Position numbers and translations under genes: made by a program
Part shown: positions 3,756-49,405 of the stretch, piece by piece
How positions within the stretch are numbered: the first letter of the stretch is position 1
How the letters are laid out: every line of letters begins with the position of its first letter
From: an uncultured Rickettsiales bacterium
GTDB taxonomy: Bacteria; Margulisbacteria; Marinamargulisbacteria; GCA-2716485; CAZIFG01
Direction of reading: 5' to 3'
Assembly (NCBI GenBank): GCA_964539135.1
Contig: CAZIFG010000001.1
Location: forward strand, 1,251 to 65,250
Length of the DNA: 64,000 nt
Notes under the pieces: model-generated
The model's input: the letters and a program-made list of their open reading frames with translations, nothing else
Told to the model about the DNA's origin: nothing
Database searches by the model: none

Positions 3756-3897
3756 GGGACTGTTGCGAAACGCCTATTTTGGCCATCTGCTGTGTTATCC
3801 TCGTCCTCAAGTCCTCATTTATGTCTCATAAACTCCGGGCTTTCGGACTCGGAATGCCTTGCAGCTGATCCAAACGTAGTCATTTCGCAACAGTCCC
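3756..3897 (+). mobile_element. Palindromic miniature element, copy 1 (142 bp), between convergent prmC and the sigma-54 activator gene
   Basis: GGGACTGTTGCGAAACGCCTA ... TAGTCATTTCGCAACAGTCCC terminal inverted repeats. Flanked by ATTTT at 3751-3755 and 3898-3902. Followed by a T-run. Confidence 0.85.
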
Positions 3898-5427: not shown

Positions 5428-6270
5428 TCAAGAGCGTGTGCTGAGTGCTGGAAGTATCGCGTCTGGGGTTCCCCATTTGGTGCATTCTTCTGCTTCTGAA
5501 TATTGAAAGGCGATACCTGTGTCTTTGATCCAACAGCCGCTTATTCCCAATTCTGTTTGCAGTGCCATGACATTTTCTAAATTGTCATCAAAAAACCATA
5601 CGCTTTTATCTAGGGTGAGAGTGGATGTGTCTTGGATGATTTTTTTTACAATTTTTGTAAAATTGGAGAGTGGTTTTCCGATCCAATGGATGGGGCGTTG
5701 TAGGATTTCTTCTAGTGTTTCGGCATAATAACCTACAACTGCTTGGTGTCTATCTTGAACTCGAATCATGCGATCTGGATTGCAACAAATGACGGGAATT
5801 TCAGGGGTATGATGGCAATGAGAAATAAGAGGCGCTAATACATCGTGTGTATTGTCTCTGGGACCTGATGTTAAAACAATGACTTCGCTTTCCTCTACGT
5901 GAGGTGTTATTTTTTTGGCTTTTGCACGGATTATATATTCATGAGAATAGGGGGATCCAAAGACGTAGGCAATTTTGTTTTCGATGAGCCTGCGTATGAC
6001 CGGATCATGTTCTAACCCACTACCAGATGAAATGATATGGGATTCTGGGATATGAATGCCAAACGTGTTCAATCGCGTTTCTATTCGTTTTGGATTTTGA
6101 AAGGCATTGTTTGTGATCAGATAGCAGGGACCCAAGGTTTGAAAGTGTTGGATGATTTCAGGCACAGATTCAAAGGCAGAGGGTTTGTCTGTATAAATCA
6201 CACCGGAAGCGTCCAATAAAAATCCTTTTGGATTGCTTTTTAAGATCTCGGTTAAGGTGCGTTTGATCAT
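5428..6270 (-). CDS. HAD-superfamily hydrolase, subfamily IIA-like
   Basis: LLDASGVIY motif I-like, ITNNA, and FFDDN near the C-terminus. Start chosen at the ATG that forms an ATGA overlap with the ispE stop. Confidence 0.65.
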   Translation of the reverse strand: MIKRTLTEILKSNPKGFLLDASGVIYTDKPSAFESVPEIIQHFQTLGPCYLITNNAFQNPKRIETRLNTFGIHIPESHIISSGSGLEHDPVIRRLIENKIAYVFGSPYSHEYIIRAKAKKITPHVEESEVIVLTSGPRDNTHDVLAPLISHCHHTPEIPVICCNPDRMIRVQDRHQAVVGYYAETLEEILQRPIHWIGKPLSNFTKIVKKIIQDTSTLTLDKSVWFFDDNLENVMALQTELGISGCWIKDTGIAFQYSEAEECTKWGTPDAILPALSTRS

Positions 6271-7235
6271 AAACTTTCTGTTGCTACCATCTGAAGGGGG
6301 CATTCTAGACTTAGTTTTTCTTTATAATTTTCGGCTTCGCTTAGGGTGTTAAATGGGATAAATAAAGTAGAGCCGGATCCAGACATATACCATTGTTTGG
6401 GACTTATTTGAGTGAGTGTATCTGTTATTTTTTTAAGTTCTGGATACAGAATAAGTGCAGGTTCTAAGAGATCATTTTTTCCCAGTAGGGGATTTGGGCA
6501 AATGGGGTGGGCGGGTTCTTTTGCTGCATGGGGATACTGTTCATCGAATGTTTTATAGATTTGGGTGGTATCGCAGTGGATATTGGGAAAAATCAGCAGG
6601 TAAGCTTGAGTTTTACTTGGAAGGCTTACGATGTTTTCTCCAATGCCATAGACCCAGGCACATCCACTTTGGGACTGTTGTGAAATGCCTATTTTGGCCA
6701 TCTGCTGCGTTATCCTCGCCCTTAAGTCCTCATTTATACCGTATAAACTCTGGGCTTTTGGACTCGGAATGCCTTGCATATGATCCAAACGTAGGCATTT
6801 CGCAACAGCCCCACTTTTTAAAAAAAAGGGGACATCGGAGCCGGCTTTTAGTGCAATGGGGATTAAGCTTTCAAGGGGATGATTCCAAGATTCTAAGGTA
6901 TTCAAAACATTTAAAAAACAGGCGGCATTACTGCTTCCGCCACCGAGTCCGCCTCCCATGGGAATGTTTTTTTCAATGTGGATGTGGTAGCCATACTGAC
7001 AGGGCAGTTGTTGATATATTTTCCAGAGGATATTGGTTTCATTGAGCGGAACATCAGGATGTGTGGCTGTGATTTGAAGCCCTTTTTGGGTGCTTTGTTC
7101 TATGGTGAGGGTATCTGAAAGGGAGAGGGTTTGAAAAATAGAATTGATCGGGTGATATCCATTAGATCGCGGTGCATAGATCTGTAAGGATAAATTTAAT
7201 TTTGCAGGAGATAAGTATTTAACTTTTTTTAACAC
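6267..7235 (-). CDS. ispE: 4-diphosphocytidyl-2-C-methyl-D-erythritol kinase carrying an in-frame 49-codon element insertion
   Basis: KLNL.L start region, GHMP kinase motif PMGGGLGGGSSNAA, GSDVPFFL ... GIGE. The ORF is 322 aa, or about 273 aa once the insertion is removed. GTG start. Confidence 0.85.
   Translation of the reverse strand: MLKKVKYLSPAKLNLSLQIYAPRSNGYHPINSIFQTLSLSDTLTIEQSTQKGLQITATHPDVPLNETNILWKIYQQLPCQYGYHIHIEKNIPMGGGLGGGSSNAACFLNVLNTLESWNHPLESLIPIALKAGSDVPFFLKSGAVAKCLRLDHMQGIPSPKAQSLYGINEDLRARITQQMAKIGISQQSQSGCAWVYGIGENIVSLPSKTQAYLLIFPNIHCDTTQIYKTFDEQYPHAAKEPAHPICPNPLLGKNDLLEPALILYPELKKITDTLTQISPKQWYMSGSGSTLFIPFNTLSEAENYKEKLSLECPLQMVATESL
6671..6812 (+). mobile_element. Palindromic miniature element, copy 2 (142 bp), inside the ispE coding sequence
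   Basis: Full-length match to the family. Flanked by ACTTT at 6666-6670 and 6813-6817. 142 + 5 = 147 nt = 49 codons, with no stop in the ispE frame. Confidence 0.9.
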
Positions 7236-7245
7236 AGGTTCTTTT

Positions 7246-7276
7246 AAAGCCCCCCTGATTAAAGGGGGGCTTTTTT
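7246..7276 (-). terminator. GC-rich hairpin between the PPIase gene and ispE (bidirectional-type intrinsic terminator)
   Basis: GCCCCCC (7249-7255), 8-nt loop, GGGGGGC (7264-7270), flanked by an A-run and a T-run. On the minus strand the trailing U tract is only 3 nt. Confidence 0.5.
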
Positions 7277-8188: not shown

Positions 8189-8225
8189 ATATGAGGACTT
8201 CTAATAGGCGTTTCGTAACAGTCCC
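8189..8225 (-). repeat. Truncated, internally deleted copy of the palindromic element (left arm only, opposite orientation)
   Basis: The reverse complement reads GGGACTGTTACGAAACGCCTATTAGAAGTCCTCATAT, matching the left repeat plus the AAGTCCTCAT core. It ends 3 nt from the AAGGAG Shine-Dalgarno sequence of the PPIase gene. Confidence 0.6.
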
Positions 8226-8313
8226 AATAGTGGCTTATTCTAACAATGGGGCACTGCTTTGTCCACTAAAATTATTCTCAAAATGGGGGTGTTTTATGTC
8301 CCTTTTTGGGGTT

Positions 8314-18621: not shown

Positions 18622-18757
18622 GGGGCTGTTGCAAAATGCCTATTTTGCCCATCTGCTGTGTTATCCTCGTTCTTAAGCCCTCATTTTCACATATAAGGGC
18701 TTTCAGACTCGGAATGCCTTGCAGCTGATCCAAACGTAGGCATTTTGCAACAGCCCC
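18622..18757 (+). mobile_element. Palindromic miniature element, copy 3 (136 bp, 6-nt central deletion), in the infA upstream region
   Basis: Perfect 21-bp terminal inverted repeats (GGGGCTGTTGCAAAATGCCTA / TAGGCATTTTGCAACAGCCCC). The left boundary is blurred by a G-run. Confidence 0.85.
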
Positions 18758-22131: not shown

Positions 22132-22626
22132 TTAACGGCTTACTTCGGCCTTGGAAAGGTGTTTTTCACTATCAAGCAAGTGTTTTTTGATCTCTTGACC
22201 GTTTTCTTTTGTCTCTCCACATGAATATTGACCTATTCCGCCTGACTTCGGCACAACACGATGACAGGGGAAATAAAGAGGGAAGGGATTGTTGGCAAGT
22301 GCTGTTCCTACGGCTCTTGCAGCTTTTGGCATTCCGATATTTTGTGCAATTTCAGCATAATATCGAGTTTCACCTAAGGGGATTTGAGAGACTTCCTCTA
22401 AGACTTTTTTTTGAAATGGCGTTAGACGTGTTGTATCGATGATTTGGTTTTTTAATGCCCCTACAAGGATGCTTAAGGAGACTGGGCCATTTTCTGATGG
22501 AGATAGCTGTATTCTAATTACTTCTCCTTTTGCATTATAAGACCATTTTATATCTAGGGACTGTTGCAAAACGCCTATTTTGGCCATCTTCTGTGTTATC
22601 CTTGTCCTCAAGTCCTCATTTATCAT
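22132..22626 (-). CDS. ogt: Methylated-DNA--protein-cysteine methyltransferase; its present start codon and first 24 codons lie inside an element copy
   Basis: Active site PCHRVV and helix-turn-helix YAEIAQNIG..KAARAVG. See the finding on the interrupted 5' end. Confidence 0.75.
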   Translation of the reverse strand: MINEDLRTRITQKMAKIGVLQQSLDIKWSYNAKGEVIRIQLSPSENGPVSLSILVGALKNQIIDTTRLTPFQKKVLEEVSQIPLGETRYYAEIAQNIGMPKAARAVGTALANNPFPLYFPCHRVVPKSGGIGQYSCGETKENGQEIKKHLLDSEKHLSKAEVSR

Positions 22627-22698
22627 CTATAAATTCCGGGCTTTCAGACTTGGAATGCCTTGTATATGATCCAAACGTAAGCATTTTGCAACAGTTCT
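22557..22698 (+). mobile_element. Palindromic miniature element, copy 4 (142 bp), inserted in the 5' end of ogt
   Basis: Full-length family match, flanked by ATCTA at 22552-22556 and 22699-22703. Confidence 0.85.
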
Positions 22699-22838
22699 AT
22701 CTATATTTAATAGGGAATTCTGGTTTTTCATGGCATTATTATAACATGATTTCTTTATTTTTATATTTTTTGATTTTTTATATTTAATGTTGTTTATTTT
22801 TATTTTATTTTTTAAATTTATGTGGTATATTTTGGCTC

Positions 22839-29956: not shown

Positions 29957-30093
29957 GGGGCTGTTGCAAAACGCCTATTTTGGCCATCTGCGGTGCTATC
30001 CTCGTCCTCAAGTCCTCATTTATACCGTATAAGGGCTTTCGCTCTCGGAATGCCTTGCAGCTGATCCAAATGTAGGCATTTCGCAACAGTCCC
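29957..30093 (+). mobile_element. Palindromic miniature element, copy 5 (137 bp, 5-nt central deletion), upstream of the ABC exporter gene
   Basis: Family match with both terminal repeats. Flanks are CTAGG (29952-29956) and CTCGG (30094-30098), matching at 4 of 5 positions. Confidence 0.85.
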
Positions 30094-37260: not shown

Positions 37261-38538
37261 TTGGTAGATTCTATTGGTGCGGCTGGGCAATATGCTATTC
37301 CTCAAAATACACGACGTGTAGAACGCCCTCGTTCGGCTGAAGAATCTCAATCTCGTGAATTTAAGCTGGATAATACAGGGGCCTCTACAGAGGCACATGC
37401 GGCTACTGCTATAGAAGATGTTCAAGCGGATGCCAATAAGGTTCGAAAAAATAAAGAAGCATCTGTTCAAGAGCGTCGGAGTCAACTGACCGATACAGAT
37501 TTAGGTGACATGCTTCTTAAATTTAAAAAGCCTGTTACTCCTCAGTATAAGCAAATTATTACGGCTCTTTTAGAGCGAAATCAGCCTATTACCAAAGAGG
37601 CGCTTGATGGCATTAAAACCCTTATTGATGGCAATTCAAAACCCAATTCGATTCAAGCGGCGGTGATTGCCTATTCTAAGGGCCTTTCTACGTCTTCTAA
37701 AGGAACGGATTTGATATCGTCGTTTTTATCTCATTTTACGTCTTTTACAGAGAATACATCTGCTTTAAATACCTCTTTAAATCAGTTGCGTTTTTCACTT
37801 TCTAATTATGGTAAATTGTTTGAGCCCTCGTTTTTATCGTCTTTTTCGGCCATTTTATCTGGATTTGGAGATGAGCTTAAAAAGCTGACGCGTGTTCAAC
37901 AGGAAGGCTCTTTGGAAGGGTTTGAATTGGGGCGTGAAAAGATGATTGGAGACCTTAAAACATTATTGGGTTTCCTTAAAGGGGTAGAACATCAGGTCAT
38001 TCAGCGTGGTGCGGATGTGCCGGTTTCTTTGGTTAAATCCTTTTTGTCGGATGTGCTTCCTTTTAGACAGGATTTGTCTGCGCTTTTAGATGATTTATTA
38101 ACGCAAATGGTTTTGACTAAAACTGATCTTCATGCGATGGCAAATCAAGATTTTGCCTATTGGTTATTGCCTAATTTATGGCCTGGGATTAAGAGGGATA
38201 TCGAGCTTTTGATTCGACGCCAAAAACGGGGTAAAAAAAGTGTTGTACTCCCTGAAAAAACACAAATTATTTTGAAGTTTGAAACCCCAGAAATGGGTGA
38301 AGTCACTATTGTTATGGATTTTCTGGATCGGACTATTTCTTACGTGTTTCATACTACAGCAGGGGATACCAAATCCTATATTGCTTCTCTGTTACCTGAT
38401 TTGAGGTATAGAATGGCCTCTCACAACTATCAACTTACACGGGTTCAAACACGCGAAAATTCTTTTGTAGATGTGAAATCTTTAATTTTACCCACGATTA
38501 ACCTAAATTCCATGACACGGATCATTACGGAGGCTTGA
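37261..38538 (+). CDS. fliK: Flagellar hook-length control protein FliK-like
   Basis: The C-terminal segment KFETPEMGEVTIVMDFLDRTISYVFHTTAGDTKSYIASLLPDLRYRMASHNYQL fits the FliK C-terminal (Flg_hook) pattern. TTG start with AGGA 7 nt upstream. Confidence 0.5.
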   Translation: MVDSIGAAGQYAIPQNTRRVERPRSAEESQSREFKLDNTGASTEAHAATAIEDVQADANKVRKNKEASVQERRSQLTDTDLGDMLLKFKKPVTPQYKQIITALLERNQPITKEALDGIKTLIDGNSKPNSIQAAVIAYSKGLSTSSKGTDLISSFLSHFTSFTENTSALNTSLNQLRFSLSNYGKLFEPSFLSSFSAILSGFGDELKKLTRVQQEGSLEGFELGREKMIGDLKTLLGFLKGVEHQVIQRGADVPVSLVKSFLSDVLPFRQDLSALLDDLLTQMVLTKTDLHAMANQDFAYWLLPNLWPGIKRDIELLIRRQKRGKKSVVLPEKTQIILKFETPEMGEVTIVMDFLDRTISYVFHTTAGDTKSYIASLLPDLRYRMASHNYQLTRVQTRENSFVDVKSLILPTINLNSMTRIITEA

Positions 38539-39014
38539 TGTCTAATTATAGGCCCCCTTTTACACCTTCTATGGTACCGCCCTCAGATCCTAAAAAAGAG
38601 AAAGAGGCGCCTGCTATTTCTTCAAAATCGGTGCGTCGAAAAGGTAAGGTTAAGGCGTCTGATATTAAGTCTCGTTTGGATCAGTTGAATTTACCTGAAA
38701 AAAGCAAGAAAAAGGCCATTGCGCTTAAATATGATGTGGATAAGGGCAAGGCGCCTAAAATTTTAGCAGTGGGAAAAGGGGCCTTTGCTGAAATGATTTT
38801 GCAGGTGGCCGAAGATCATAAAATTCCCTTTTATGAAGATGATGCGTTGGCCGATCTTTTATCTAAATTGGAAATAGACAGTGAAATTCCGCCTGAGCTT
38901 TTTGGTGTTGTGGCTGAAGTGTTGGCTTTTGTGTACCAACTTGATAAATTGGCAAAAAAACGGCAGAAGGTTCGCGATAAATATGGTACTATGCGATCTA
39001 AGGAGGCCTTATGA
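38535..39014 (+). CDS. Stand-alone FlhB C-terminal domain homologue (EscU/YscU/FlhB-C family)
   Basis: KAIALKYDVDKGKAPKILAVGKGAFAEMILQVAEDHKIPFYEDDALADLL...IPPELFGVVAEVLAFVY. ATGA overlaps on both sides. Confidence 0.7.
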   Translation: MMSNYRPPFTPSMVPPSDPKKEKEAPAISSKSVRRKGKVKASDIKSRLDQLNLPEKSKKKAIALKYDVDKGKAPKILAVGKGAFAEMILQVAEDHKIPFYEDDALADLLSKLEIDSEIPPELFGVVAEVLAFVYQLDKLAKKRQKVRDKYGTMRSKEAL

Positions 39015-39817
39015 TCATGATTTGTTTACGTTGGATGTTTGTTTTTTGTACCTTTTTGGGGTCGTCTTCCTTTCTTTTGGCCTATGAAAATTATGGGGAA
39101 GTTCAAGATCCAGGTGTTTGGGATAGTATTAATGGGATGTATGCCTTTCAGACGCATTATACGAATTGGATGTTTTATACCATGAATGTGAATACTCCCG
39201 GGTTTTTGGAACAGGGGGTTTATAATACCCGTCGGACTTCGGATAAATTGGATTCTGTGCCTTTTTTTCGGTTTAGACCTGGCCCTATTGTTGAGACTCG
39301 GCGTAAATTGGATTTTTATATTAATGCTCAGGGGCGTGGCTTTTTTGTGATTAAGTTACCAACGACTTTGGCCTATACGCGTGATGGTCGTTTTCAGTTG
39401 GATTCAACAGGGCGTTTGGTAACTATGGCTGGATCTTACCCTGTTTTAGGTACAGAGGGCGATATTTATTTGCCGGATGGATTGAGTATTGATGATGTGA
39501 CCTGTTCTCGTTCGGGTATTTTGTATGCGCAAGGACAGCGTGTTGGACAACTTCGCATTGCGGTCTTTACTAGCTTTCAAGCGATGCAATCTATGGATAC
39601 CCTGAATGGCAGTGTTTTTATTTTGACAGAGGAATTGGATTTATTGGAAGGGCCTGAGCATTATGCAATTCTTCAAGGACATTTAGAAGAGAATAATGTT
39701 TTAAAAGCGATTACTGGGGATATTTTAATGGCAAAGAACTCGTATGATGCCAATGCAAAAGTAGCGCATTTGTTAAATCGAGCAATTAATACTGGGGCGA
39801 GCCTTGCTCAACCTTAA
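39011..39817 (+). CDS. flgF: Flagellar basal-body rod protein (FlgF-like)
   Basis: NVNTPGF N-terminal rod motif, TRDGRFQLDSTGRLVT, C-terminal LEENNV. Confidence 0.65.
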   Translation: MIMICLRWMFVFCTFLGSSSFLLAYENYGEVQDPGVWDSINGMYAFQTHYTNWMFYTMNVNTPGFLEQGVYNTRRTSDKLDSVPFFRFRPGPIVETRRKLDFYINAQGRGFFVIKLPTTLAYTRDGRFQLDSTGRLVTMAGSYPVLGTEGDIYLPDGLSIDDVTCSRSGILYAQGQRVGQLRIAVFTSFQAMQSMDTLNGSVFILTEELDLLEGPEHYAILQGHLEENNVLKAITGDILMAKNSYDANAKVAHLLNRAINTGASLAQP

Positions 39818-39834
39818 AATAGGAGAAAATTAAG

Positions 39835-40638
39835 ATGTTATCCCAATTGTTTATGGCCAAGTCTGCCTTTGATGCTTTTGAACGAAAAATGCAGGTTGTT
39901 GCGAATAATATTTCCAATGCCCAAACAGTGGGGTATAAAAAACGACGTGTAGAATTGGAAAGTTTGTTTCCTTTGGTTTTGGAACGGGCTTATTCTGAAT
40001 TTGATGAAAGTGGGAGTGCTCAAGGTGCAAAACGTAAGAAATATTTGGAATATGGGCAAGGCGTTCGTATTGTAGATGTAACCAAAGATTTGGCGATGGG
40101 TACTGTTCAAATTACCAATCAACCTTTTGATTTTGCGATTCAAGGCAGCGGGATGCTTCAGTTTAGAATGCCAGATGGTACCATTGCCTATAGTCGTGCG
40201 GGAAATCTTCATATTGATGCAGATGGAACCTTGATGAATCCCAATGGACATCCTGTGGAGCCTACGATTCGTGTGCCTCGTAACGTTACAGATGTTGTGG
40301 TGACAGAAGAGGGACGTGTCTTTGTTCAAGCCGGAGAGAACCCTCAGCCTCAAGAAATTGGTCAACTTATGCTTGCTAATTTCCCCAATCCTTGGGCGAT
40401 TAAAGATTTAGGGCAAAACTTATTTGCTGAAACAGAGGCGTCGGGACAACCTACTTTAGAAGTTCCGGGGCGTAATGGTATGGGAACTATTAAACAGAGA
40501 GCTTTGGAGTTTTCAAACGTTAATATTATTGAAGAGTTAATGGATATGTTGCTGACGCAGCGATCTTTTGAGCTTATTGTAAAAACCATCGGGTCTGCCG
40601 ATGCGATGCTTAAAATTGCCAGTGACATTAGTAAGTAG
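39835..40638 (+). CDS. flgG: Flagellar distal rod protein FlgG
   Basis: VVANNISNAQTVGYKK N-terminal motif, LEFSNVNIIEELMDMLLTQRSFE C-terminal motif. Confidence 0.9.
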   Translation: MLSQLFMAKSAFDAFERKMQVVANNISNAQTVGYKKRRVELESLFPLVLERAYSEFDESGSAQGAKRKKYLEYGQGVRIVDVTKDLAMGTVQITNQPFDFAIQGSGMLQFRMPDGTIAYSRAGNLHIDADGTLMNPNGHPVEPTIRVPRNVTDVVVTEEGRVFVQAGENPQPQEIGQLMLANFPNPWAIKDLGQNLFAETEASGQPTLEVPGRNGMGTIKQRALEFSNVNIIEELMDMLLTQRSFELIVKTIGSADAMLKIASDISK

Positions 40639-41353
40639 AGGACTTTTTTTTGGCATTTTAGCCTTATTTTTAGGTACTGGGCTTCTTGCGACGCCTAAAT
40701 TGACCCCTTTGAGTGTTCAAAGTGCTGTTCGTTCTAAGTTTACTCAGAAATTATTACATGACTATCCTTATGCGATTACGTCTGACGTATCTATTCGCTT
40801 TAACACGTTTGAGGCGTTTAATGTGCCGACTTTAGCGGTGTCCATGCGCTTTGAATTTGCAGAATTTTCCAATGTTTTGGGTAAAACAGTGATTCCACTG
40901 ACCTATTTAGATGCCAATGGCCAAGACTTGGTTTCGATTCGTTTGGGTACAGAGACGACTTTGTATGCTTTTTTTGTGAAGTCTACGGCCCTTTTAAGAA
41001 AGGGGGAGATTGTTCGTCCTGAGCATTTAGAGCGTGTTCGATTGGAAGTGAATGGACGAGACCCTCAGAGTTATCATGATACGGAGTCTATTGTGGGTAA
41101 AATGGTGAGGGGGACTATTGCACAGGGGACTGTTTTTACAGATAGGATGCTTAAGATTCCACCTGTGATTAACATGGGGGCGGATGTCTTATTTGTGCTT
41201 CCAAATCAGGGCTTTACAGTGGAAGTTCAAGGAAAAGCTTTAGATGAAGGGGCTATTGGTGATATTATTAGGGTGCAATCAGCTGCAGATAACCGGAAGA
41301 TTTTGAGAGGTAAGGTGAAAGATGAAAAAACAGTTATTTTTTATAAGCTTTAG
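40601..41353 (+). CDS. flgA: Flagellar P-ring assembly chaperone FlgA
   Basis: Signal peptide. C-terminal G.V..G..V.......G..V...G.AL..GA.GD.I.V pattern. The start could be ATG 40601 or GTG 40622. Confidence 0.65.
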   Translation: MRCLKLPVTLVSRGLFFGILALFLGTGLLATPKLTPLSVQSAVRSKFTQKLLHDYPYAITSDVSIRFNTFEAFNVPTLAVSMRFEFAEFSNVLGKTVIPLTYLDANGQDLVSIRLGTETTLYAFFVKSTALLRKGEIVRPEHLERVRLEVNGRDPQSYHDTESIVGKMVRGTIAQGTVFTDRMLKIPPVINMGADVLFVLPNQGFTVEVQGKALDEGAIGDIIRVQSAADNRKILRGKVKDEKTVIFYKL

Positions 41354-41936
41354 TTTAATTTTGGTTTATTGCTCTACTCTTGGGGCTGATTCTTTATGGC
41401 AGGGTAATGGCGCGGCCTCTTTATATGGGACAGAGAGGCGTCGTATTGCAGTTGGAGATACTATTACGATTTTGATTTCGGAATCTACAGCGGCTGTTCA
41501 AGAGGCCAGTACTCAAACAAAAAAAAAGTCGTCTATTGCGACTAATTTATTGGATAACTGGGATCAAGTTGCGAATCTTTTAGGGAATGAGCAAAATCGT
41601 AAAACGTTTGAATTTGGCGTTGGGGGTAATGATCAATATGCAGGTTCTGGCCAAACCTCTCGTAGAAGTAGTGTCAAAGCGGTTGTCACAGCTATGGTGA
41701 CAGAAGTCCTAGAATCCGGTAATTTGTTTATTGTGGGAGAGCATGAGGTTAAGGTAAATGATGAAGTTGAGACGATTCATGTGGAAGGTGTGATTCGTCC
41801 CTCAGATATTTCGGCTAAAAATACGGTTTTGTCTTCTCAAATTGCTAAGGCTCAGGTGTCTGTTCATGGTGTGGGAGTTGTGGGTTCTAAACAAACACCA
41901 GGACTTTTGACTAAAATGTTTAATTGGTTATTTTAA
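41322..41936 (+). CDS. flgH: Flagellar L-ring lipoprotein FlgH
   Basis: Lipobox LVYC, SLW...VGDTITILISE and typical FlgH core. Confidence 0.85.
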   Translation: MKKQLFFISFSLILVYCSTLGADSLWQGNGAASLYGTERRRIAVGDTITILISESTAAVQEASTQTKKKSSIATNLLDNWDQVANLLGNEQNRKTFEFGVGGNDQYAGSGQTSRRSSVKAVVTAMVTEVLESGNLFIVGEHEVKVNDEVETIHVEGVIRPSDISAKNTVLSSQIAKAQVSVHGVGVVGSKQTPGLLTKMFNWLF

Positions 41937-41954
41937 TACAAAAGAGGTGATGGG

Positions 41955-43055
41955 ATGAACTCAAATAAGCGACTTGTACTTTTTGTTCTTTTTGTGTGGT
42001 TTTTTTCAGGGACTTTGGCAGAGTATGCCGTTTCTCAGGAGGTTACAGTTCGACTTAAAGATGTGGGGCGTATTATTGAAGCGCGAGAAAATCAGCTTTT
42101 AGGCTTTGGCTTGGTTGTAGGGCTTCGTAACACCGGGGATACCAAATCGACAGGATTTACGCACACTGCTTTTCGGAATTTATTGGGTAAAATGGGCATT
42201 TCATCTGGAGGGATTGATTTTAATTCTCGAAATGTGGCAGCTGTTATGGTGACGGCTGTTTTACCGCCTTTTTTAAAACCAGGTCAAAAAATTCCTGTTA
42301 CGGTGTCTGCTGCGGGTGATAGTAATAGTTTGGTAGGGGGTACCTTGCTGATGACACCGCTTCAAGGGGCGGATATGGTTACGTATGCGGTTGCTCAAGG
42401 TCCTGTGGTTGTCGCGGGTATTTCAGAGCAGTCTGTTAATGCACGGTATATGCGCAACCAAACAACGGTAGGGACTATTCCAAATGGGGCTATTATTGAA
42501 GCAGAAGTTCCGGTTACCTATTCTGATTTACATAATATTACGGTTATTTTAAACGAATCTAATTTTACAACGGTTTCAAGAGCTACTACCGCTATTCAAA
42601 AAGCTGGATTTGCAGGTGCTAAAGCTATTGATGCGAATACAATTAAAATCCCGCTTACAGATTTGGACTCTTCAGATCTTGTGAATACCATTGCGGTGTT
42701 GGAAGATATTGCGGTAATTCCAGATACGTCTGCTAAAGTTGTGATTAATTCTCGAACGGGAACAGTGGTGATTGGGGATAAGGTCAGGTTGTTCCCTGCT
42801 GCTGTTACGCATGGGAGTATTTCTATTCAGATTAGTGATTCGGATGCCACGCAAGGCTTAGCAGGAGAGAATAATGGAACGGGGATTGATGTTCAAGAAG
42901 CGGATTCTCGTCTTATTTATTTAAATCCAAGGGATACGCTATCTAGTTTGGTTAATGCTTTGAATCAAATTGGGGCCTCTCCTAAAGACCTTATTTCTAT
43001 CATTGAACAATTAAAATTGTCTGGGGCGCTTGTTGCCGAGTTAGAGGTGATGTAA
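41955..43055 (+). CDS. flgI: Flagellar P-ring protein FlgI
   Basis: RLKDVGRIIEARENQLLGFGLVVGLRNTGD N-terminal signature, 366 aa. Confidence 0.9.
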   Translation: MNSNKRLVLFVLFVWFFSGTLAEYAVSQEVTVRLKDVGRIIEARENQLLGFGLVVGLRNTGDTKSTGFTHTAFRNLLGKMGISSGGIDFNSRNVAAVMVTAVLPPFLKPGQKIPVTVSAAGDSNSLVGGTLLMTPLQGADMVTYAVAQGPVVVAGISEQSVNARYMRNQTTVGTIPNGAIIEAEVPVTYSDLHNITVILNESNFTTVSRATTAIQKAGFAGAKAIDANTIKIPLTDLDSSDLVNTIAVLEDIAVIPDTSAKVVINSRTGTVVIGDKVRLFPAAVTHGSISIQISDSDATQGLAGENNGTGIDVQEADSRLIYLNPRDTLSSLVNALNQIGASPKDLISIIEQLKLSGALVAELEVM

Positions 43056-43058
43056 GAT

Positions 43059-43466
43059 TTGGTGTTTCGTGGGGCTATAGCGCTTTTTCTATGGGGGTGT
43101 TTTCTATGTCTTCAGCTGAAGGCGCAGAATCTTCCGTATGATCAGATGCAGGATATGTCGCCTTCTATGAAATTTTATTCGGCTCAAAATAATTTTTATC
43201 CTCAAGAAGATAAAGTGATTGATGAATTTCAATCGCGATTGATTGAGGATTTATTTACTAAACCTTTGTTTGATACTCAGTCTGCTTTGTCTTATGATGA
43301 AGATGGAGATCAAGATCCAGGACAAGAAGATAATGTGATTAGTAGCAAGGCTCAGAAAGAAATTATGAATGATTTATTGTCTAAAGAATTTGCTAAAGTA
43401 CTTGCGCAAAAAGATATGTTAAAATTAAGAGAGACTTTGAGAGCTCAGATTCATCGTATGGAATAG
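43059..43466 (+). CDS. Possible rod-binding protein (FlgJ N-terminal-like)
   Basis: Position directly after flgI, a signal-like N-terminus, and weak resemblance to rod-binding helices (IMNDLLSKEFAKVLAQ). TTG/GTG start after GAGGTGA. Confidence 0.3.
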   Translation: MVFRGAIALFLWGCFLCLQLKAQNLPYDQMQDMSPSMKFYSAQNNFYPQEDKVIDEFQSRLIEDLFTKPLFDTQSALSYDEDGDQDPGQEDNVISSKAQKEIMNDLLSKEFAKVLAQKDMLKLRETLRAQIHRME

Positions 43467-43479
43467 AGGATTAACGCGA

Positions 43480-44208
43480 ATGAAAGAAGTGGATATTTCA
43501 AAATTGCAAGCTCAAAATTTGATGCAGGACCCTGCTATGATTAGCGAGGTTTTTGTGAATGATTATATGGCGATGATCGAATCTGTTGCCAGTGTTTTAT
43601 CTCGAAGTGGAAAAGTTCCTCCCTGTATTGATTTTGATGATTTAGTTTCTTGGGGAGTGGAAGGTCTGATTAAGGCTAAAAAAAATTTTAAAAATGATTT
43701 AGGGGCTCGCTTTTCAACCTATGCTTTTTATCGGGTGAAAGGCGAGATGTTGGATCGTGTTCGTTCCGAATGGAAATATAGAAATCCTGTTGAGCATGAG
43801 CAACACCGTCGACGCATTCGAGAAAAAGTAGCTGATGCTGCCAGTGAATTTTCTAAAAATACGGAGGATGCGGCGCTTTCTACATCTGAAAGTGTCAAAG
43901 GTTTATTGCGTCAGTCTACTATGGTGTATGTTTTAGCTACAGAAGATTTTGAAGTGGAATCCAGTATGAAGGGAAGTAAAAATCCTGAAGTTGAAGCCAT
44001 TGATGAAAATAATTCTGTTTTATGGGAAGAAATTCAGAAATTAGAAGGCGATGAACGAACTATTGTTGAGCTTTTTTATGTTCAGGGATTGAAACAAACC
44101 GAAATAGCTGATAAGTTAGGGTACTCAAAGAGTAAAGTATGTCGTGTGCATATGGCCTTGTTGAATAAATTAAGAGTGCGGCTTAACGAGAGATATCATG
44201 AAGAATAG
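43480..44208 (+). CDS. fliA: Flagellar sigma factor FliA/WhiG family (sigma-28)
   Basis: Region 2 (DDLVSWGVEGLIKAKKNFKNDLGARFSTYAFYRVKGEMLD) and region 4 HTH (GLKQTEIADKLGYSKSKVCRVH). Confidence 0.8.
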   Translation: MKEVDISKLQAQNLMQDPAMISEVFVNDYMAMIESVASVLSRSGKVPPCIDFDDLVSWGVEGLIKAKKNFKNDLGARFSTYAFYRVKGEMLDRVRSEWKYRNPVEHEQHRRRIREKVADAASEFSKNTEDAALSTSESVKGLLRQSTMVYVLATEDFEVESSMKGSKNPEVEAIDENNSVLWEEIQKLEGDERTIVELFYVQGLKQTEIADKLGYSKSKVCRVHMALLNKLRVRLNERYHEE

Positions 44209-44587
44209 TTTTTGGATCTTATTTTTTGTGGGCTTTTTTTTAGCTTCTCCTTTACTTGCGGAGAAGAGCTTTTTTGATGATTTTTTATTCGATAGTTCTA
44301 TGTCTGGTCTGGAAGAGGCCATTCATGATACGGGACATCGCCATGCGGTGTATAGTTATAACATTGCCAACGCAACGACACAGGGATTTAAGCCTATTCT
44401 TTTAGATGATGATCAACGTCAATTTTTTCAGCTGATTCCCAAAAACAGTGAGTATTTTTCTAAGGTGGTTATTGAACACATGTCTTCTAAAATGGCGTTG
44501 AATCGGGTGAGACAGGCCGCTTTGTTTGCCCTTTACAAGAAAAAATTTGATAATTATCGACAAGTAGTTTCTTTGGGTAAAAAATGA
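44198..44587 (+). CDS. flgB: Flagellar proximal rod protein FlgB
   Basis: YSYNIANATTQGFKP rod N-terminal motif. Size and position are appropriate, directly before flgC. Confidence 0.7.
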   Translation: MKNSFWILFFVGFFLASPLLAEKSFFDDFLFDSSMSGLEEAIHDTGHRHAVYSYNIANATTQGFKPILLDDDQRQFFQLIPKNSEYFSKVVIEHMSSKMALNRVRQAALFALYKKKFDNYRQVVSLGKK

Positions 44588-45039
44588 CCGGCTTTATATA
44601 TTCTTTTTTTATTTTTTCTTTTTTATTTTCTTCTCTTTTGCATGCGCAGAGTTTGGATGATGCCTTGTCGATTAATATGTCGGGGGTATTGGCTCAACGG
44701 ATGAAAATGACGGTTACGGCTGAAAACGTGGCCAACTTAATGACGCTTAAGGATGAGGAAACCGGCCTTCCGTATCAAAAAAAATATGTGGTTTTAGAAA
44801 CAAATGGCACGAAAGGGGTTCGTGTTAAGAGTATAGAGCGGAGTAATGAGCCTTTTGGTCGCTACTTCGATCCTGCAGCGCCTCAGGCAGATGAAGATGG
44901 TTTTTTTTATTTACCCAATACCAATATGCCGAATGAAATGATAACATTAAAGCATACGGAGGCTATTTTTGAAGCCAATGTTAATGCATTTAAATTGAGT
45001 AAAGCGATGTATCAGAGTGCGATTGAGTTACTTAAATAA
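44584..45039 (+). CDS. flgC: Flagellar proximal rod protein FlgC
   Basis: TAENVANLMT N-terminal motif and MPNEMITLKHTEAIFEANVNAFK C-terminal motif. Confidence 0.85.
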   Translation: MTGFIYSFFIFSFLFSSLLHAQSLDDALSINMSGVLAQRMKMTVTAENVANLMTLKDEETGLPYQKKYVVLETNGTKGVRVKSIERSNEPFGRYFDPAAPQADEDGFFYLPNTNMPNEMITLKHTEAIFEANVNAFKLSKAMYQSAIELLK

Positions 45040-45054
45040 GAGGAGGCTTTAGGT

Positions 45055-45594
45055 ATGGGACAATTACGTGTGAATCAAATATCCAACTCATCTGCAATGC
45101 CTAAAGGGGTTGAGGGGGCCACTTACCGTGCGGATAAACCGTTTCAATTGTTTTTAGATCAAGAAGTTTCTAAAACAGAAACCCAAAAACCCATTCCGGC
45201 TATGCCTCATGTTATCGCTCAACCTTTGGATATTAATCGTTATTCTGAAGTTGTGGCGCAGGTTATTAATAAAAATGAATTGGATCGTCTGGATAAAGAG
45301 CGTCGTACAGATCGGGATAGAGATGTTGCGGTGAGTGATGTTGATGAGCGTTCTGGAACCCGAGGGGTTGTGCCTTTTCAGATTATGATTGAAAAGGCTG
45401 TAGATTCATTGGTCGAAATTAGTAATATGGAGTATCGTGTTAATGACTTAACCCAGCAGTATATTGAGGGTAAAGTTTCTGTGGATGTTGTGAGTATGGA
45501 AGCCCAGAAGCTTAATTTAGCGATTACGTTTGCCACCACTTTGATTACAACAGTGTCGCAAACAGTCAAAGAATTAACTCAAATACCAATTTAA
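45055..45594 (+). CDS. fliE: FliE-like hook-basal body complex protein with a long N-terminal extension
   Basis: Position between flgC and fliF. The C-terminal helix VSVDVVSMEAQKLNLAITFATTLITTVSQTVKELTQIPI follows the FliE C-terminal pattern. Confidence 0.45.
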   Translation: MGQLRVNQISNSSAMPKGVEGATYRADKPFQLFLDQEVSKTETQKPIPAMPHVIAQPLDINRYSEVVAQVINKNELDRLDKERRTDRDRDVAVSDVDERSGTRGVVPFQIMIEKAVDSLVEISNMEYRVNDLTQQYIEGKVSVDVVSMEAQKLNLAITFATTLITTVSQTVKELTQIPI

Positions 45595-45603
45595 GGACTA
45601 TAA

Positions 45604-47346: not shown

Positions 47347-47936
47347 TGAAGGGCTATCAAAAAGCGCAATTATTGCTTAAATTGTTGGGAGATGAGACAC
47401 AGTCTGTTTTGCGTCATTTATCAGAATCGAGTACGGCGAAGTTAACAGGGTTGGTAGGAGATGTTCCTGATTTAAGAGGGGATGATAAACAGGCCTTTTT
47501 TGATGATGTGTTTCGTGAAGTTGAAAAACAGCGTGTTGCAGGCTTTGGATTGGCGTCTGCTCCACCCGTTGTATCGGCTGCTGCTGCTCCTTCTGTCGAA
47601 AAAGAGAGGCCTTCCACCGGAGCTTCTGGGGGTGGATTTTTTTCTTTAGATGCTTCACCTTCATCTTCTTCTAGTGCTTCAGGCACTAAAGAGTGTGGTC
47701 CTGAAGATATTGCAGAACAGTTGGCATCTCAACCGCCTCAAATTGCAGCCTTTTTTTTATCTAAACTGGATGCGGGCCTTGCTTCTGACGTTCGCGGGCA
47801 TATGTCGTCTACTTTGATTTCTCAGATTGATGAGATTCAGGTGGATGCGATCCCCCTTTCAGATAAAGTCTTTAAACGTATTTATGATCAAATTATGACC
47901 CGAAAAGTTAAGGCAGCTGATCCTAACTTTTTTTAA
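47343..47936 (+). CDS. Short FliG-like protein (N-terminal and partial middle domain only, 197 aa)
   Basis: YQKAQLLLKLLGDETQSVLRHLS matches the FliG N-domain start. A later PQIAAFFLSKLDAGLASDV repeat is FliG-like. No C-terminal torque domain is present before the stop. Confidence 0.45.
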   Translation: MMKGYQKAQLLLKLLGDETQSVLRHLSESSTAKLTGLVGDVPDLRGDDKQAFFDDVFREVEKQRVAGFGLASAPPVVSAAAAPSVEKERPSTGASGGGFFSLDASPSSSSSASGTKECGPEDIAEQLASQPPQIAAFFLSKLDAGLASDVRGHMSSTLISQIDEIQVDAIPLSDKVFKRIYDQIMTRKVKAADPNFF

Positions 47937-49405
47937 TTTCGGAACAGCCCCCTTTTTAGTCGTATATAGCCGATACTTAATATACCGAATGCGACGTAAA
48001 TGATCAGGTCTCCTACTTTTGCGTAGAGGCTTTGTTTTAAATTCATAGGGAGGGTTGCACGGATTACCCCCCTTGTATTTAGGGGCATTTTTTGGATGTC
48101 TTTGCCGTTATTGGAAATGATGCTGGAAATCCCCGTACTTGCAGATTGAATCATGTATTGATTCATTTCAATGGCGCGTAAACGGGTCATTTGGAGATGT
48201 TTTTCAGCGGCAGAGCTGTTTAGGAACCAGGCATTATTGGCCAGTGTACATAATACAGTCGCGCCTTGTTGACCAAACTGTCTTGAGGCACCGGGGTAGG
48301 TGGATTCTAGACAAATAGAGGGTCCAATTTTGAATTGATGGATGCTTAAGGGGCCTTCGTTTTTACCCTTTGAAAATTCTGCGCCTGGGATGATGTTCTT
48401 TAATCCGAATTTTAAAAATAGGGATTTTAAGGGCCAATATTCGCCAAAAGGCATGAGCTTCATTTTGTTATAGGGTGGGTTTAAGCTGCCATCTTTAGAG
48501 ATGAGTGCCGCACTATTATAAATGTGATCGTTTTGTCGATAGGGTGTTCCAAATAGGATATGTGTTTGGTAGGTTTGTGTGATTCTTTTTAGGTCTGTCA
48601 TGAACCATTGTCGTTCTAAATTAAAATCCGGTGTAATCGTTTCGGCCCAGACTACCAAATCGGCGGGGGCTTTTTGAAGGGCTTCTTCTGTGAGGTCTAA
48701 ATATTCTTTTCTAAAGGGCGTCCAGTAAGGGGCTTGAAATTTTTTGTCTTGGCTTTGATTGGGTTGCACGACCAGGACACGTAGCGTTTCTTGAGAGGTG
48801 GGTTCTTTTTGATTTTTGAGTATGAATCCGAGACTTTCGCTGCTCATGATGAGGATACCGCCGAGAAGGAGATAGGTGAGCCCTTTTTTGGATCTATTTT
48901 CATAGGCACTGAATAAAAGGGCATTTATTGCGATTATAATGGCGGATATTAAAAATACGCCCCCTAGCTTTGCCAGTAGAATAAATGGCTGATGACTTGC
49001 TTGTGAATAGCCTATTATGCCGCCTGGGCTTCCAAATGGGCCGATGGATTTTAAATATTCTAGCAGGATCCAGATTAAGGGCATCCAGTGTATTTTTTTT
49101 TTTAAATGGCCAAAGATCCAGCCGATGATGCCGGTATATAGGCCAAAAAAACAACTTGAAAGGATCCATAAGCAGATGACACCGATTTTAGGGCCCCAGG
49201 CACTGAGTGTGAGCATCCAACTGTTAAACCCTGCCATGAATAAGACGCCCCATAAATAACCATACAGGGCCGTGTGTTTTGAGTGTGTGAATACATAAAA
49301 AAGTGGGATTAGGGCAACAAAGGCAAGGCCATACAGATTAAATGGTGGGAAGCTGAGTAGTGTTAGTACTACAGATACTAGAATTATAAGACTTCGGCTT
49401 GCCAT
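47933..49405 (-). CDS. lnt: Apolipoprotein N-acyltransferase
   Basis: Multi-TM N-terminal half and CN-hydrolase C-terminal half (VVWAET, PFGEYWP, ICLEST). Confidence 0.85.
   Translation of the reverse strand: MASRSLIILVSVVLTLLSFPPFNLYGLAFVALIPLFYVFTHSKHTALYGYLWGVLFMAGFNSWMLTLSAWGPKIGVICLWILSSCFFGLYTGIIGWIFGHLKKKIHWMPLIWILLEYLKSIGPFGSPGGIIGYSQASHQPFILLAKLGGVFLISAIIIAINALLFSAYENRSKKGLTYLLLGGILIMSSESLGFILKNQKEPTSQETLRVLVVQPNQSQDKKFQAPYWTPFRKEYLDLTEEALQKAPADLVVWAETITPDFNLERQWFMTDLKRITQTYQTHILFGTPYRQNDHIYNSAALISKDGSLNPPYNKMKLMPFGEYWPLKSLFLKFGLKNIIPGAEFSKGKNEGPLSIHQFKIGPSICLESTYPGASRQFGQQGATVLCTLANNAWFLNSSAAEKHLQMTRLRAIEMNQYMIQSASTGISSIISNNGKDIQKMPLNTRGVIRATLPMNLKQSLYAKVGDLIIYVAFGILSIGYIRLKRGLFRN

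What the first reader, a model, noticed from the sequence alone, without database searches (positions are those of the whole stretch)
6666..6817. Palindromic element inserted in frame inside the essential MEP-pathway kinase gene ispE
The ispE ORF (minus strand) reads straight through copy 2.

The element (142 nt) plus one ACTTT flank (5 nt) totals 147 nt, or 49 codons. These codons encode [49 protein letters not shown], with no stop.

Deleting the element and one flank joins ...GSDVPFFLKSG to CAWVYGIGENIV. That restores the spacing of the conserved IspE segment (E. coli [20 protein letters not shown]) and a typical length of 273 aa.

An apparently intact essential enzyme therefore carries a mobile-element-derived 49-aa loop next to its substrate-binding GxGE region. 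This is the behaviour described for Rickettsia palindromic elements, here in an unrelated sequence family.
Basis: partly seen in the sequence, partly recalled or inferred. Interest (0 to 1): 0.85.

Follow-up and report, generated by a model that had tools for sequence, protein, structure and literature searches.

The report
Mobile palindrome inserted in-frame in ispE
A 141-base mobile palindromic repeat has landed inside the gene for an isoprenoid-pathway enzyme of an uncultivated Margulisbacteria-like bacterium without breaking the reading frame, adding a 49-residue loop; the same repeat does this to two other genes, as the palindromic elements of Rickettsia do.

Summary
ispE (6267-7235, minus strand, 322 aa) contains a 141-nt palindromic MITE-like element (6671-6811) flanked by a 6-bp duplication, CACTTT. 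Together these are 147 nt, or 49 stop-free codons.

None of 119 homologues has residues there, and neither do the positional orthologues in two related genomes. Deleting the 147 nt gives a 273-aa IspE with canonical spacing. Catalytic residues are intact. AlphaFold2 predicts a confident IspE fold (pLDDT 90; TM 0.82 to E. coli and Klebsiella IspE) with the insert as a low-confidence excursion.

Independent assemblies contain the same allele, and no empty site was found.

The window holds five full copies and two remnants, and another contig holds a sixth copy. Three of the six lie in coding sequence (ispE, ogt, lolA). All three are in the one phase that is stop-free in the family consensus.

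The element matched nothing in the other public collections searched.

The best reading is a new family of coding-compatible palindromic transposable elements, analogous to Rickettsia RPEs but unrelated in sequence. Translation of the insert and enzyme activity are inferred, not shown. In-frame MITE insertions are already documented in several bacteria, so this is a new member of a known kind and of moderate interest.

The parts
6267..7235 (-). ispE ORF (322 aa, GTG start) carrying the insertion
   Evidence: TIGR00154 scores 152.5 bits against a cutoff of 138.7. Both GHMP N and C domains are present. K12, N14, D134 and GGGLGGGSSNAA are conserved.
6671..6811 (+). Element copy c2 (141 nt, about 21-nt terminal inverted repeats, whole-length hairpin). 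Orientation is given in the family's own register; ispE reads its reverse complement.
   Evidence: The RNA fold of the mRNA-sense strand is -60 kcal/mol.
6665..6670 (+). Left copy of the 6-bp target-site duplication CACTTT
6812..6817 (+). Right copy of the 6-bp target-site duplication CACTTT
6663..6809 (-). The 49 insert-encoded codons (IspE residues 143-191)
   Evidence: AlphaFold2 pLDDT is 43-75 here with a helix at 169-181, against 94-98 for nearly all of the rest of the protein.
3756..3896 (+). Copy c1, filling the gap between the convergent genes prmC (+) and the sigma-54 activator (-). Flanks are AATTTT and CATTTT.
   Evidence: In relatives these two genes abut or overlap.
18622..18756 (+). 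Copy c3 (135-nt variant). It lies 56 nt upstream of the infA start and 11 nt after the upstream gene's stop codon.
22557..22697 (+). Copy c4, a second in-frame 147-nt insertion (TSD TATCTA at 22551-22556 and 22698-22703) after codon 11 of ogt. It has a TAG in the loop, followed immediately by an ATG.
   Evidence: Deleting 22557-22703 restores a 150-aa ORF from the ATG at 22731. The PCHRV active site is intact.
22132..22731 (-). ogt (O6-methylguanine-DNA methyltransferase) gene interrupted by c4
29957..30092 (+). Copy c5 (136 nt), 38 nt upstream of the start of an ABC-transporter gene
8190..8227 (-). Internally deleted half-copy (terminal repeat TAGGCGTTTCGTAACAGTCCC plus an ATGAGGACTT fragment) in the opposite orientation, between pnp and the PpiC/SurA-like gene
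47913..47957 (+). Eroded right-arm remnant at the junction of two convergent genes
   Evidence: (E = 0.016). This is weak evidence.

Best explanation
A non-autonomous, MITE-like palindromic transposable element inserted into the ispE coding sequence of an uncultivated Margulisiibacteriota-like bacterium. The element has a 135- or 141-nt core, about 21-nt terminal inverted repeats and a 6-bp target-site duplication.

Core plus duplication is a multiple of three. The element landed in the one phase that is stop-free in the family consensus, so the gene stays open.

The gene is most probably transcribed and translated straight through. That would give an IspE with a 49-residue, largely disordered excursion containing one short helix. 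The excursion sits at the turn between the short helix after catalytic Asp134 and the strand leading to GIGE, and the GHMP kinase fold and catalytic residues are untouched.

The same element behaves in the same way in ogt and lolA. The family is therefore a functional analogue of the Rickettsia palindromic elements, independent in sequence.

Shown: repeat origin, duplication, frame, absence from orthologues, presence in independent assemblies, and a predicted intact fold. Inferred: translation of the insert, retained kinase activity, essentiality of ispE in this organism, and selection as the cause of the phase bias.
For: - Repeat family with terminal inverted repeats, hairpin and duplications.
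- Intact 322-aa ORF that is clearly IspE.
- The insert columns are empty, or hold at most one residue, in all 119 homologues.
- Relatives L010 and L012 keep the synteny rpsO-pnp-ppiC-like-ispE-...-sigma54-prmC-prfA-rpmE. Their IspE is 295-296 aa, without the insert, and they carry no element copies.
- Precise deletion gives a canonical 273-aa protein.
- The AlphaFold2 model has pLDDT 90.2 and pTM 0.86, with only residues 143-191 at low confidence. Foldseek gives TM 0.82 to 8ckh and 1oj4 IspE.
- The identical allele occurs in an ENA contig that spans the gene (99.98% identical over 14.4 kb). A Logan contig starts inside the element and reads on into ispE.
- There is no second ispE in the window.
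- Two more in-frame coding insertions exist, in ogt and lolA.
- All three coding insertions use the only phase that is stop-free in the family consensus. The chance of this is about (1/3)^3 = 0.04.
Against: - There are no expression, proteomic or activity data.
- The insertion point is only a few residues from elements that line the substrate pocket, the 3-10 helix theta2 and the beta5-beta6 loop (PMC2655357), so activity could be impaired.
- A hairpin of about -60 kcal/mol inside the mRNA could attract RNase III or slow ribosomes.
- Differences between the ispE copy and the consensus are 3 synonymous to 7 non-synonymous, like the intergenic copies. Nothing therefore shows selection on the peptide itself.
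- Only about 80 kb of this genome could be read, so a second ispE elsewhere is not excluded.
- The sample of six copies is small.
Confidence: 0.8

Rival explanations
1. The insertion has inactivated or crippled IspE. On this view the ORF is a young pseudogene that has not yet decayed, and isoprenoid precursors come from a second ispE, another pathway or a partner organism.
For: - The insertion lies 9 residues after the catalytic Asp134 and 7 before the substrate-contacting GxGE residue (PMC2655357).
- The ogt copy of the same element carries a stop codon, so the family does damage genes.
- There is no sign of purifying selection on the insert peptide.
Against: - Copies differ by 9-17% from each other, so the family is not young. 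Even so, the ispE copy and the rest of the gene have no stop or frameshift.
- All catalytic and P-loop residues are conserved.
- The identical allele is present in independent samples.
- No other ispE was seen in the window, and no ispE closer than 45% identity was found in the protein collection that holds this assembly's proteins.
Confidence: 0.12
2. The 147 nt are not represented in the mature protein. Ribosomes would hop across the hairpin using the duplicated codons supplied by the target-site duplication, or the segment would be removed at the RNA or protein level.
For: - The duplication places identical in-frame codons on both sides: AGT GGx in ispE and GAT in ogt. A hop would therefore recreate the ancestral protein exactly.
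- A very stable hairpin starts right after the first copy.
- There is precedent for bypassing of inserts in T4 gene 60 and at 81 sites in Magnusiomyces mitochondria (PMC5009743).
Against: - Bypass is unnecessary for ispE and lolA, which are stop-free.
- There is no stop or rare codon directly after the putative take-off codon.
- The 147-nt gap is far longer than the 50-nt gap of T4 gene 60, the known bacterial-system case cited here.
- The insert has no intein features. It is 49 aa, starts with Ala and ends Ser-Gly.
- No bacterial mRNA splicing of this kind is known (own knowledge).
Confidence: 0.03
3. The insert is an assembly artefact, or it is a native lineage-specific loop of IspE and not an insertion.
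For: Repeats do break assemblies here. Several Logan contigs end inside or right beside copies of the element.
Against: - Two independent assemblies span both junctions with identical sequence.
- The flanks carry a perfect 6-bp duplication.
- The DNA is 84-89% identical to the other copies, three of them intergenic.
- Syntenic orthologues lack the segment.
Confidence: 0.02

Closest known systems
Rickettsia palindromic elements (RPE; Ogata et al. 2000, 2002, as summarised in PMC10969869 and PMC3184786)
   Same: - Palindromic repeats of about 105-150 bp.
- A high fraction of copies lies inside ORFs of unrelated function.
- Insertions are in frame and encode a conserved peptide.
- Host proteins appear to keep their fold.
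   Different: - There is no sequence relationship. Two motif scans of 185,579 species genomes found nothing.
- The host is a Margulisiibacteriota-like bacterium with flagellar and other genes, not an obligate intracellular alphaproteobacterium.
- This element has clear terminal inverted repeats and a 6-bp duplication, so it looks like a classical MITE.
Bacterial MITEs with in-frame gene fusions: BRE (Bordetella), BOX/RUP/SPRITE (pneumococcus), ERIC/RU-1/2/3 (enterobacteria), QMITE1/2 (Coxiella), Anabaena MITEs (PMC3184786, PMC2759123, PMC5896051, PMC10969869)
   Same: - Small non-autonomous repeats with terminal inverted repeats or hairpins.
- Mostly intergenic, but sometimes fused internally or at the 5' or 3' ends of ORFs.
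- Here c4 and c6 modify 5' ends, and c2 is internal.
   Different: - It is a different sequence family and a different phylum.
- Half of the known copies are in coding sequence, and all of those are in the open phase.
- One lies inside a core enzyme of central metabolism, not in a hypothetical gene.
Correia/NEMIS elements of Neisseria (own knowledge, and reference 28 of PMC5896051)
   Same: - About 100-155-bp elements with terminal inverted repeats that fold into long hairpins in transcripts.
- Abundant and mostly close to genes.
   Different: - Correia elements duplicate TA and are known mainly for promoter, IHF and RNase III effects in untranslated regions.
- No such function was tested or seen here.
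Translational bypass inserts: T4 gene 60 and the Magnusiomyces mitochondrial inserts (PMC5009743)
   Same: - A mobile insert inside coding sequence.
- Flanked by matching codons and associated with a hairpin.
   Different: - Those inserts are 50 nt in T4 gene 60 and short blocks of nucleotides in Magnusiomyces, and the Magnusiomyces inserts disrupt the frame of 12 of the 15 protein genes (PMC5009743), so they must be skipped.
- This insert is 147 nt and open in frame.
- There is no evidence of bypass here.

Membership tests
MITE (non-autonomous element with terminal inverted repeats) | Small size with no transposase ORF | tested here: met
   Cores are 135-141 nt. The only open frames are 45-47 codons of repeat peptide.
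MITE (non-autonomous element with terminal inverted repeats) | Terminal inverted repeats | tested here: met
   Terminal repeats of about 21 nt, GGGRCTGTTGCRAAAYGCCTA. The whole element pairs into a hairpin of -41 to -67 kcal/mol.
MITE (non-autonomous element with terminal inverted repeats) | Target-site duplication | tested here: met
   Perfect 6-bp direct repeats for c2 (CACTTT), c4 (TATCTA) and c6 (CTATTT), and 5 of 6 for c1. The duplication is unclear for c3 and c5.
MITE (non-autonomous element with terminal inverted repeats) | Multiple dispersed copies in one genome | tested here: met
   Five full copies and two remnants in 64 kb, plus one copy on another contig of the same assemblies.
MITE (non-autonomous element with terminal inverted repeats) | A cognate autonomous IS with the same terminal repeats | tested here: inconclusive
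   No transposase domain was found among the window ORFs that were scanned. The rest of the genome could not be read, and the terminal-repeat pattern is absent from the three public collections.
Rickettsia palindromic elements (RPE-1 to RPE-10) | Sequence belongs to an RPE family or occurs in Rickettsia | tested here: not met
   Core and terminal-repeat motifs of this element gave 0 hits in 185,579 species genomes. These are exact-pattern tests, so distant homology is not excluded.
Rickettsia palindromic elements (RPE-1 to RPE-10) | Repeated in-frame insertion into unrelated ORFs, encoding a conserved peptide | tested here: met
   IspE, Ogt and LolA all carry the ..[25 protein letters not shown].. 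peptide in the same orientation and phase.
Rickettsia palindromic elements (RPE-1 to RPE-10) | Insertion site compatible with the host protein's fold (surface loop) | tested here: inconclusive
   AlphaFold2 keeps the IspE fold at high confidence and models the insert as a low-confidence excursion at a turn. Solvent exposure was not measured and there is no experimental structure.
IspE (TIGR00154, GHMP kinase) | Score above the curated family cutoff | tested here: met
   152.5 bits against 138.7, matched in two stretches either side of the insert.
IspE (TIGR00154, GHMP kinase) | Catalytic Lys and Asp, and glycine-rich P-loop | tested here: met
   K12, N14, D134 and PMGGGLGGGSSNAA sit in invariant or nearly invariant columns of a 120-sequence alignment.
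IspE (TIGR00154, GHMP kinase) | CDP-ME kinase activity | not testable with these tools
   This needs an enzyme assay or complementation.
Intein | At least about 130 aa, N-terminal Cys/Ser, C-terminal His-Asn followed by Cys/Ser/Thr | tested here: not met
   The insert is 49 aa, starts with Ala and ends Ser-Gly. Only the following Cys fits. The intein criteria are from own knowledge.
T4 gene 60-type programmed bypass | Matching take-off and landing codons, a stop codon right after take-off, and a hairpin at take-off | tested here: inconclusive
   Matching codons and a hairpin are present, but there is no stop after take-off and the gap is 147 nt, not 50. Ribosome behaviour cannot be tested here.

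The most novel reading that the evidence does not exclude
Core plus 6-bp duplication is always a multiple of three, so the element is flanked by identical in-frame codons and begins with a very stable hairpin. Ribosomes might therefore hop over it, at least part of the time. That would regenerate the ancestral IspE, LolA and, above all, the stop-interrupted Ogt from interrupted genes. It would be a bacterial chromosomal counterpart of the mobile bypass inserts of Magnusiomyces mitochondria.
Probability: 0.03. Interest if true: 0.85.

Novelty: new member of a known kind. Interest (0 to 1): 0.5.

Why it matters
This would be a second, independent lineage in which palindromic selfish DNA routinely colonises protein-coding genes without destroying them. 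Until now that behaviour has been regarded as a Rickettsia speciality.

The host is not visibly genome-reduced; the window encodes flagellar genes and several metabolic enzymes. That weakens the idea that the lifestyle needs the relaxed selection of obligate intracellular bacteria.

It also gives a natural experiment on how much foreign sequence a GHMP kinase tolerates next to its active site.

In practice, such elements break assemblies (seen here) and can mislead gene callers about start codons. They can also cause intact genes to be flagged as pseudogenes in metagenome-assembled genomes.

Tried and rejected
- Two exact-motif scans each of genome contigs and metagenome contigs, and one of viral contigs, for the element core or paired terminal repeats. 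All gave 0 hits. No distribution outside this organism could be established.
- Word-index protein search with the 49-aa peptide. No candidates were returned, because the index is insensitive to short queries.
- Exhaustive HMMER search of 1.84 billion representatives with the peptide. Only one true hit came back, LolA P0128. IspE and Ogt themselves were not returned, so the library under-samples this genome.
- Exact look-ups of the predicted empty-site IspE, Ogt and LolA proteins. None is in the collection, so no polymorphic empty allele was found.
- Attempts to walk along the 195-kb NCBI contig returned only short ENA and Logan contigs.
- Rfam found only one tRNA in the window and no family for the element.
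- The promoter and terminator scan showed nothing inside the element.
- A synonymous versus non-synonymous count on the copies gave no signal and has low power.
- Searches for the sample accessions in the literature found nothing. An identification with the placozoan symbiont 'Ruthmannia' was considered and dropped, because that study's data are filed under a different accession series.
- Intein, native loop and mis-assembly were considered and rejected (see the rival explanations).

Full report
**What is there.**

The minus-strand ORF 6267-7235 is uninterrupted and 322 aa long. It is IspE:
- it has both the GHMP N and C domains;
- TIGR00154 scores 152.5 bits against a curated cutoff of 138.7, but in two separate stretches;
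- solved IspE structures align to residues 5-143 and 192-306 with nothing opposite the residues in between.

Residues 143-191 (AVAKCL...QSQSG, window 6663-6809 on the minus strand) are the insert.

**It is a copy of a dispersed repeat.**

The repeat finder, MAFFT and a profile search give five full copies in the window:

| Copy | Coordinates | Core length |
|---|---|---|
| c1 | 3756-3896 | 141 nt |
| c2 (in ispE) | 6671-6811 | 141 nt |
| c3 | 18622-18756 | 135 nt |
| c4 | 22557-22697 | 141 nt |
| c5 | 29957-30092 | 136 nt |

- All five are in one orientation, with E-values of 1e-46 to 1e-52.
- There is a half-copy in the opposite orientation at 8190-8227 and a weak remnant at 47913-47957.
- Each copy has terminal inverted repeats of about 21 nt and folds into one long hairpin of -41 to -67 kcal/mol. 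The ispE region folds with z = -5.2 against shuffles.
- Copies are 83-91% identical to each other.
- Perfect 6-bp direct repeats flank c2 (CACTTT), c4 (TATCTA) and a sixth copy, c6 (CTATTT). For c1 the match is 5 of 6.

These are the features of a MITE. No transposase was seen among the window ORFs that were scanned.

**It is an insertion, not a native segment.**

- In a 120-sequence IspE alignment, the 119 homologues have 0-1 residues in the insert columns. Their median length is 284 aa.
- Deleting 6671-6817 (147 nt) gives a 273-aa protein reading FLKSGCAWVYGIGE. This has exactly the spacing of FLxGxTALVxGIGE in relatives.
- The closest retrievable relatives are a JGI metagenome contig (L010) and NCBI GCA_014466255.1 (L012). 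PNPase is 66-68% identical, and named neighbours are Margulisiibacteriota or Marinamargulisbacteria.
- Both relatives keep the gene order rpsO-pnp-ppiC-like-ispE-...-sigma54 activator-prmC-prfA-rpmE. Their IspE is 295-296 aa without the insert, and they have no copy of the element.

**It is not an assembly artefact.**

- An independent ENA contig, 99.98% identical over 14.4 kb, spans the whole gene and encodes the identical 322-aa protein.
- A Logan contig from another run begins inside the element and continues into the 3' part of ispE.
- Other Logan contigs stop inside or right beside copies of the element, as expected for a genomic repeat.
- Exact look-ups of the predicted empty-site proteins found nothing.

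**State of the enzyme.**

- The residues K12, N14, D134 and the P-loop GGGLGGGSSNAA are all in place. Their roles are defined for Aquifex IspE in PMC2655357.
- AlphaFold2 with the 120-sequence alignment gives mean pLDDT 90.2 and pTM 0.86.
- Only the insert is uncertain. Ten-residue block means are 66, 43, 49, 75 and 62, with a predicted helix at 169-181. The strand resumes at 192 with pLDDT 95.
- The model matches E. coli and Klebsiella IspE with a target-normalised TM of 0.82.
- The site lies between the short helix after Asp134 and the strand leading to GIGE.
- In Aquifex IspE the corresponding 3-10 helix and the beta5-beta6 loop both line the CDP-ME pocket, and the residue equivalent to the I of GIGE (Lys145) contacts the cytosine through its carbonyl (PMC2655357).

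There is no second ispE in the window.

**The element does this repeatedly.**

- Copy c4 sits after codon 11 of ogt. It is again 141 + 6 = 147 nt and in the same orientation and phase, but with a TAG in the hairpin loop followed directly by an ATG.
- Deleting c4 restores a 150-aa Ogt from the ATG at 22731. The PCHRV active site downstream is intact.
- The exhaustive peptide search found one more case, P0128. This is a LolA-family protein on a contig of the same ENA assembly, with similar coverage, and it is also present in the NCBI assembly.
- There a 135 + 6 = 141-nt copy is inserted after codon 6, between the n- and h-regions of the signal peptide. It is stop-free and in the same orientation and phase.
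- So three of six full copies are in coding sequence. All three are in the single phase that is stop-free in the family consensus, [46 protein letters not shown].
- By chance this phase agreement would occur about 1 time in 27.
- The intergenic copies c1 and c4 carry stops in this frame, while the ispE and lolA copies do not.
- The differences between the ispE copy and the consensus (3 synonymous, 7 non-synonymous) give no sign that the peptide itself is under selection.

**Mechanism proposed.**

A cut-and-paste MITE duplicates 6 bp of A/T-rich target. Because core plus duplication is 3n, downstream frame is always preserved. Insertions in the open phase add 47-49 residues. They survive when they fall at tolerant sites: a turn in IspE, the n-region of a signal peptide, or the extreme N-terminus of Ogt. 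The insert is most likely translated as a flexible passenger loop. Transposition itself, translation and activity are inferred.

**Comparison with known systems.**

Functionally this is what Rickettsia palindromic elements do. According to the review in PMC10969869, nearly half of the RPE copies first reported in R. conorii are in-frame in ORFs. In-frame or terminal fusions are also recorded for BRE, BOX/RUP, ERIC/RU, QMITE and cyanobacterial MITEs (PMC3184786, PMC2759123, PMC5896051).

In sequence it is unrelated to anything retrievable. There were no hits in 185,579 species genomes, the JGI metagenomes or IMG/VR, and no Rfam family matched. I therefore file it as a new member of a known kind.

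**Rivals.**

- A crippled gene backed up elsewhere: about 0.12.
- Ribosomal hopping or other removal of the insert: about 0.03. This is attractive only because the duplication supplies matching in-frame codons and because ogt carries a stop. PMC5009743 gives the precedents.
- Artefact or native loop: about 0.02.

**Verdict.**

The observation and the interpretation are both supported, and extended by two further in-frame insertions. Interest is moderate at 0.5. It is a clean, RPE-like case in a new phylum and in a core enzyme, but the phenomenon is established and function remains untested.

Noticed in passing
window 22132-22731 (-), element 22557-22697: The ogt (MGMT) gene is interrupted after codon 11 by an in-frame copy of the same element. 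The copy carries a TAG followed immediately by an ATG (TAGATG). The gene may now start from an element-supplied ATG (MINEDL... or MAKIG...), or it may be inactive.
   Followed up: yes
L005 4397-4540 (ENA ERZ3430527 NODE_6763; protein P0128): A sixth copy is inserted in frame after codon 6 of a LolA-family gene, splitting the signal peptide. The ancestral N-terminus is MRDKIG|SLMLALWIVTVPISA. The element's internal Met (MAKIGVLKQSQIGSLMLALW...) would give a plausible alternative signal peptide.
   Followed up: yes
window 18622-18756, 29957-30092, 22557-22697; L005 4397-4540: Four of the six full copies lie within about 60 nt of a translation start. They are 56 nt upstream of infA, 38 nt upstream of an ABC-transporter gene, at codon 11 of ogt and at codon 6 of lolA. 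This could reflect a preference for A/T-rich targets or an effect on expression.
   Followed up: partly
window 3756-30092 (five full copies): All five full copies in the window share one orientation, and the lolA copy has the same orientation relative to its gene. The T-rich strand of the duplication is always on the same side. Only the truncated half-copy at 8190-8227 is inverted.
   Followed up: partly
window 8190-8227 and 47913-47957: There is an internally deleted half-copy between pnp and the ppiC-like gene, and an eroded right arm between two convergent genes. Together with the 9-17% divergence between copies, this suggests the family is old and decaying, not freshly active.
   Followed up: partly
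L002, L004, L007 contig ends (window 18611, 6716, 3850, about 3780): Short-read Logan assemblies break inside or right beside copies of the element. One result is a truncated 144-aa 'IspE' gene call that starts at the element's internal Met (P0122).
   Followed up: yes
window 6455-7045 (+): A 196-aa antisense ORF runs through ispE and the element. It exists because one plus-strand frame is stop-free in this copy and in c1 and c4, and it is almost certainly not a gene.
   Followed up: partly
window 7246-7273: A perfect G/C-rich hairpin with T-runs on both strands (AAAGCCCCCCTGATTAAAGGGGGGCTTT) lies between the ppiC-like gene and ispE, only about 10 nt before the ispE GTG start. It looks like a bidirectional terminator.
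   Followed up: no
window 57673-60833 (-): Two adjacent genes have ATP-citrate-lyase-type domains (Citrate_bind/Citrate_synth_N, then Ligase_CoA/Citrate_synt). This hints at a reductive TCA cycle or citrate cleavage in this lineage.
   Followed up: no
window 37261-47936 (+): There is a flagellar gene cluster (FliK-like, FlhB C-terminal fragment, FlgF/G, FlgA, FlgH, FlgI, a sigma-28-like factor, FliF, FliG-like). The organism therefore appears motile and not strongly genome-reduced.
   Followed up: no
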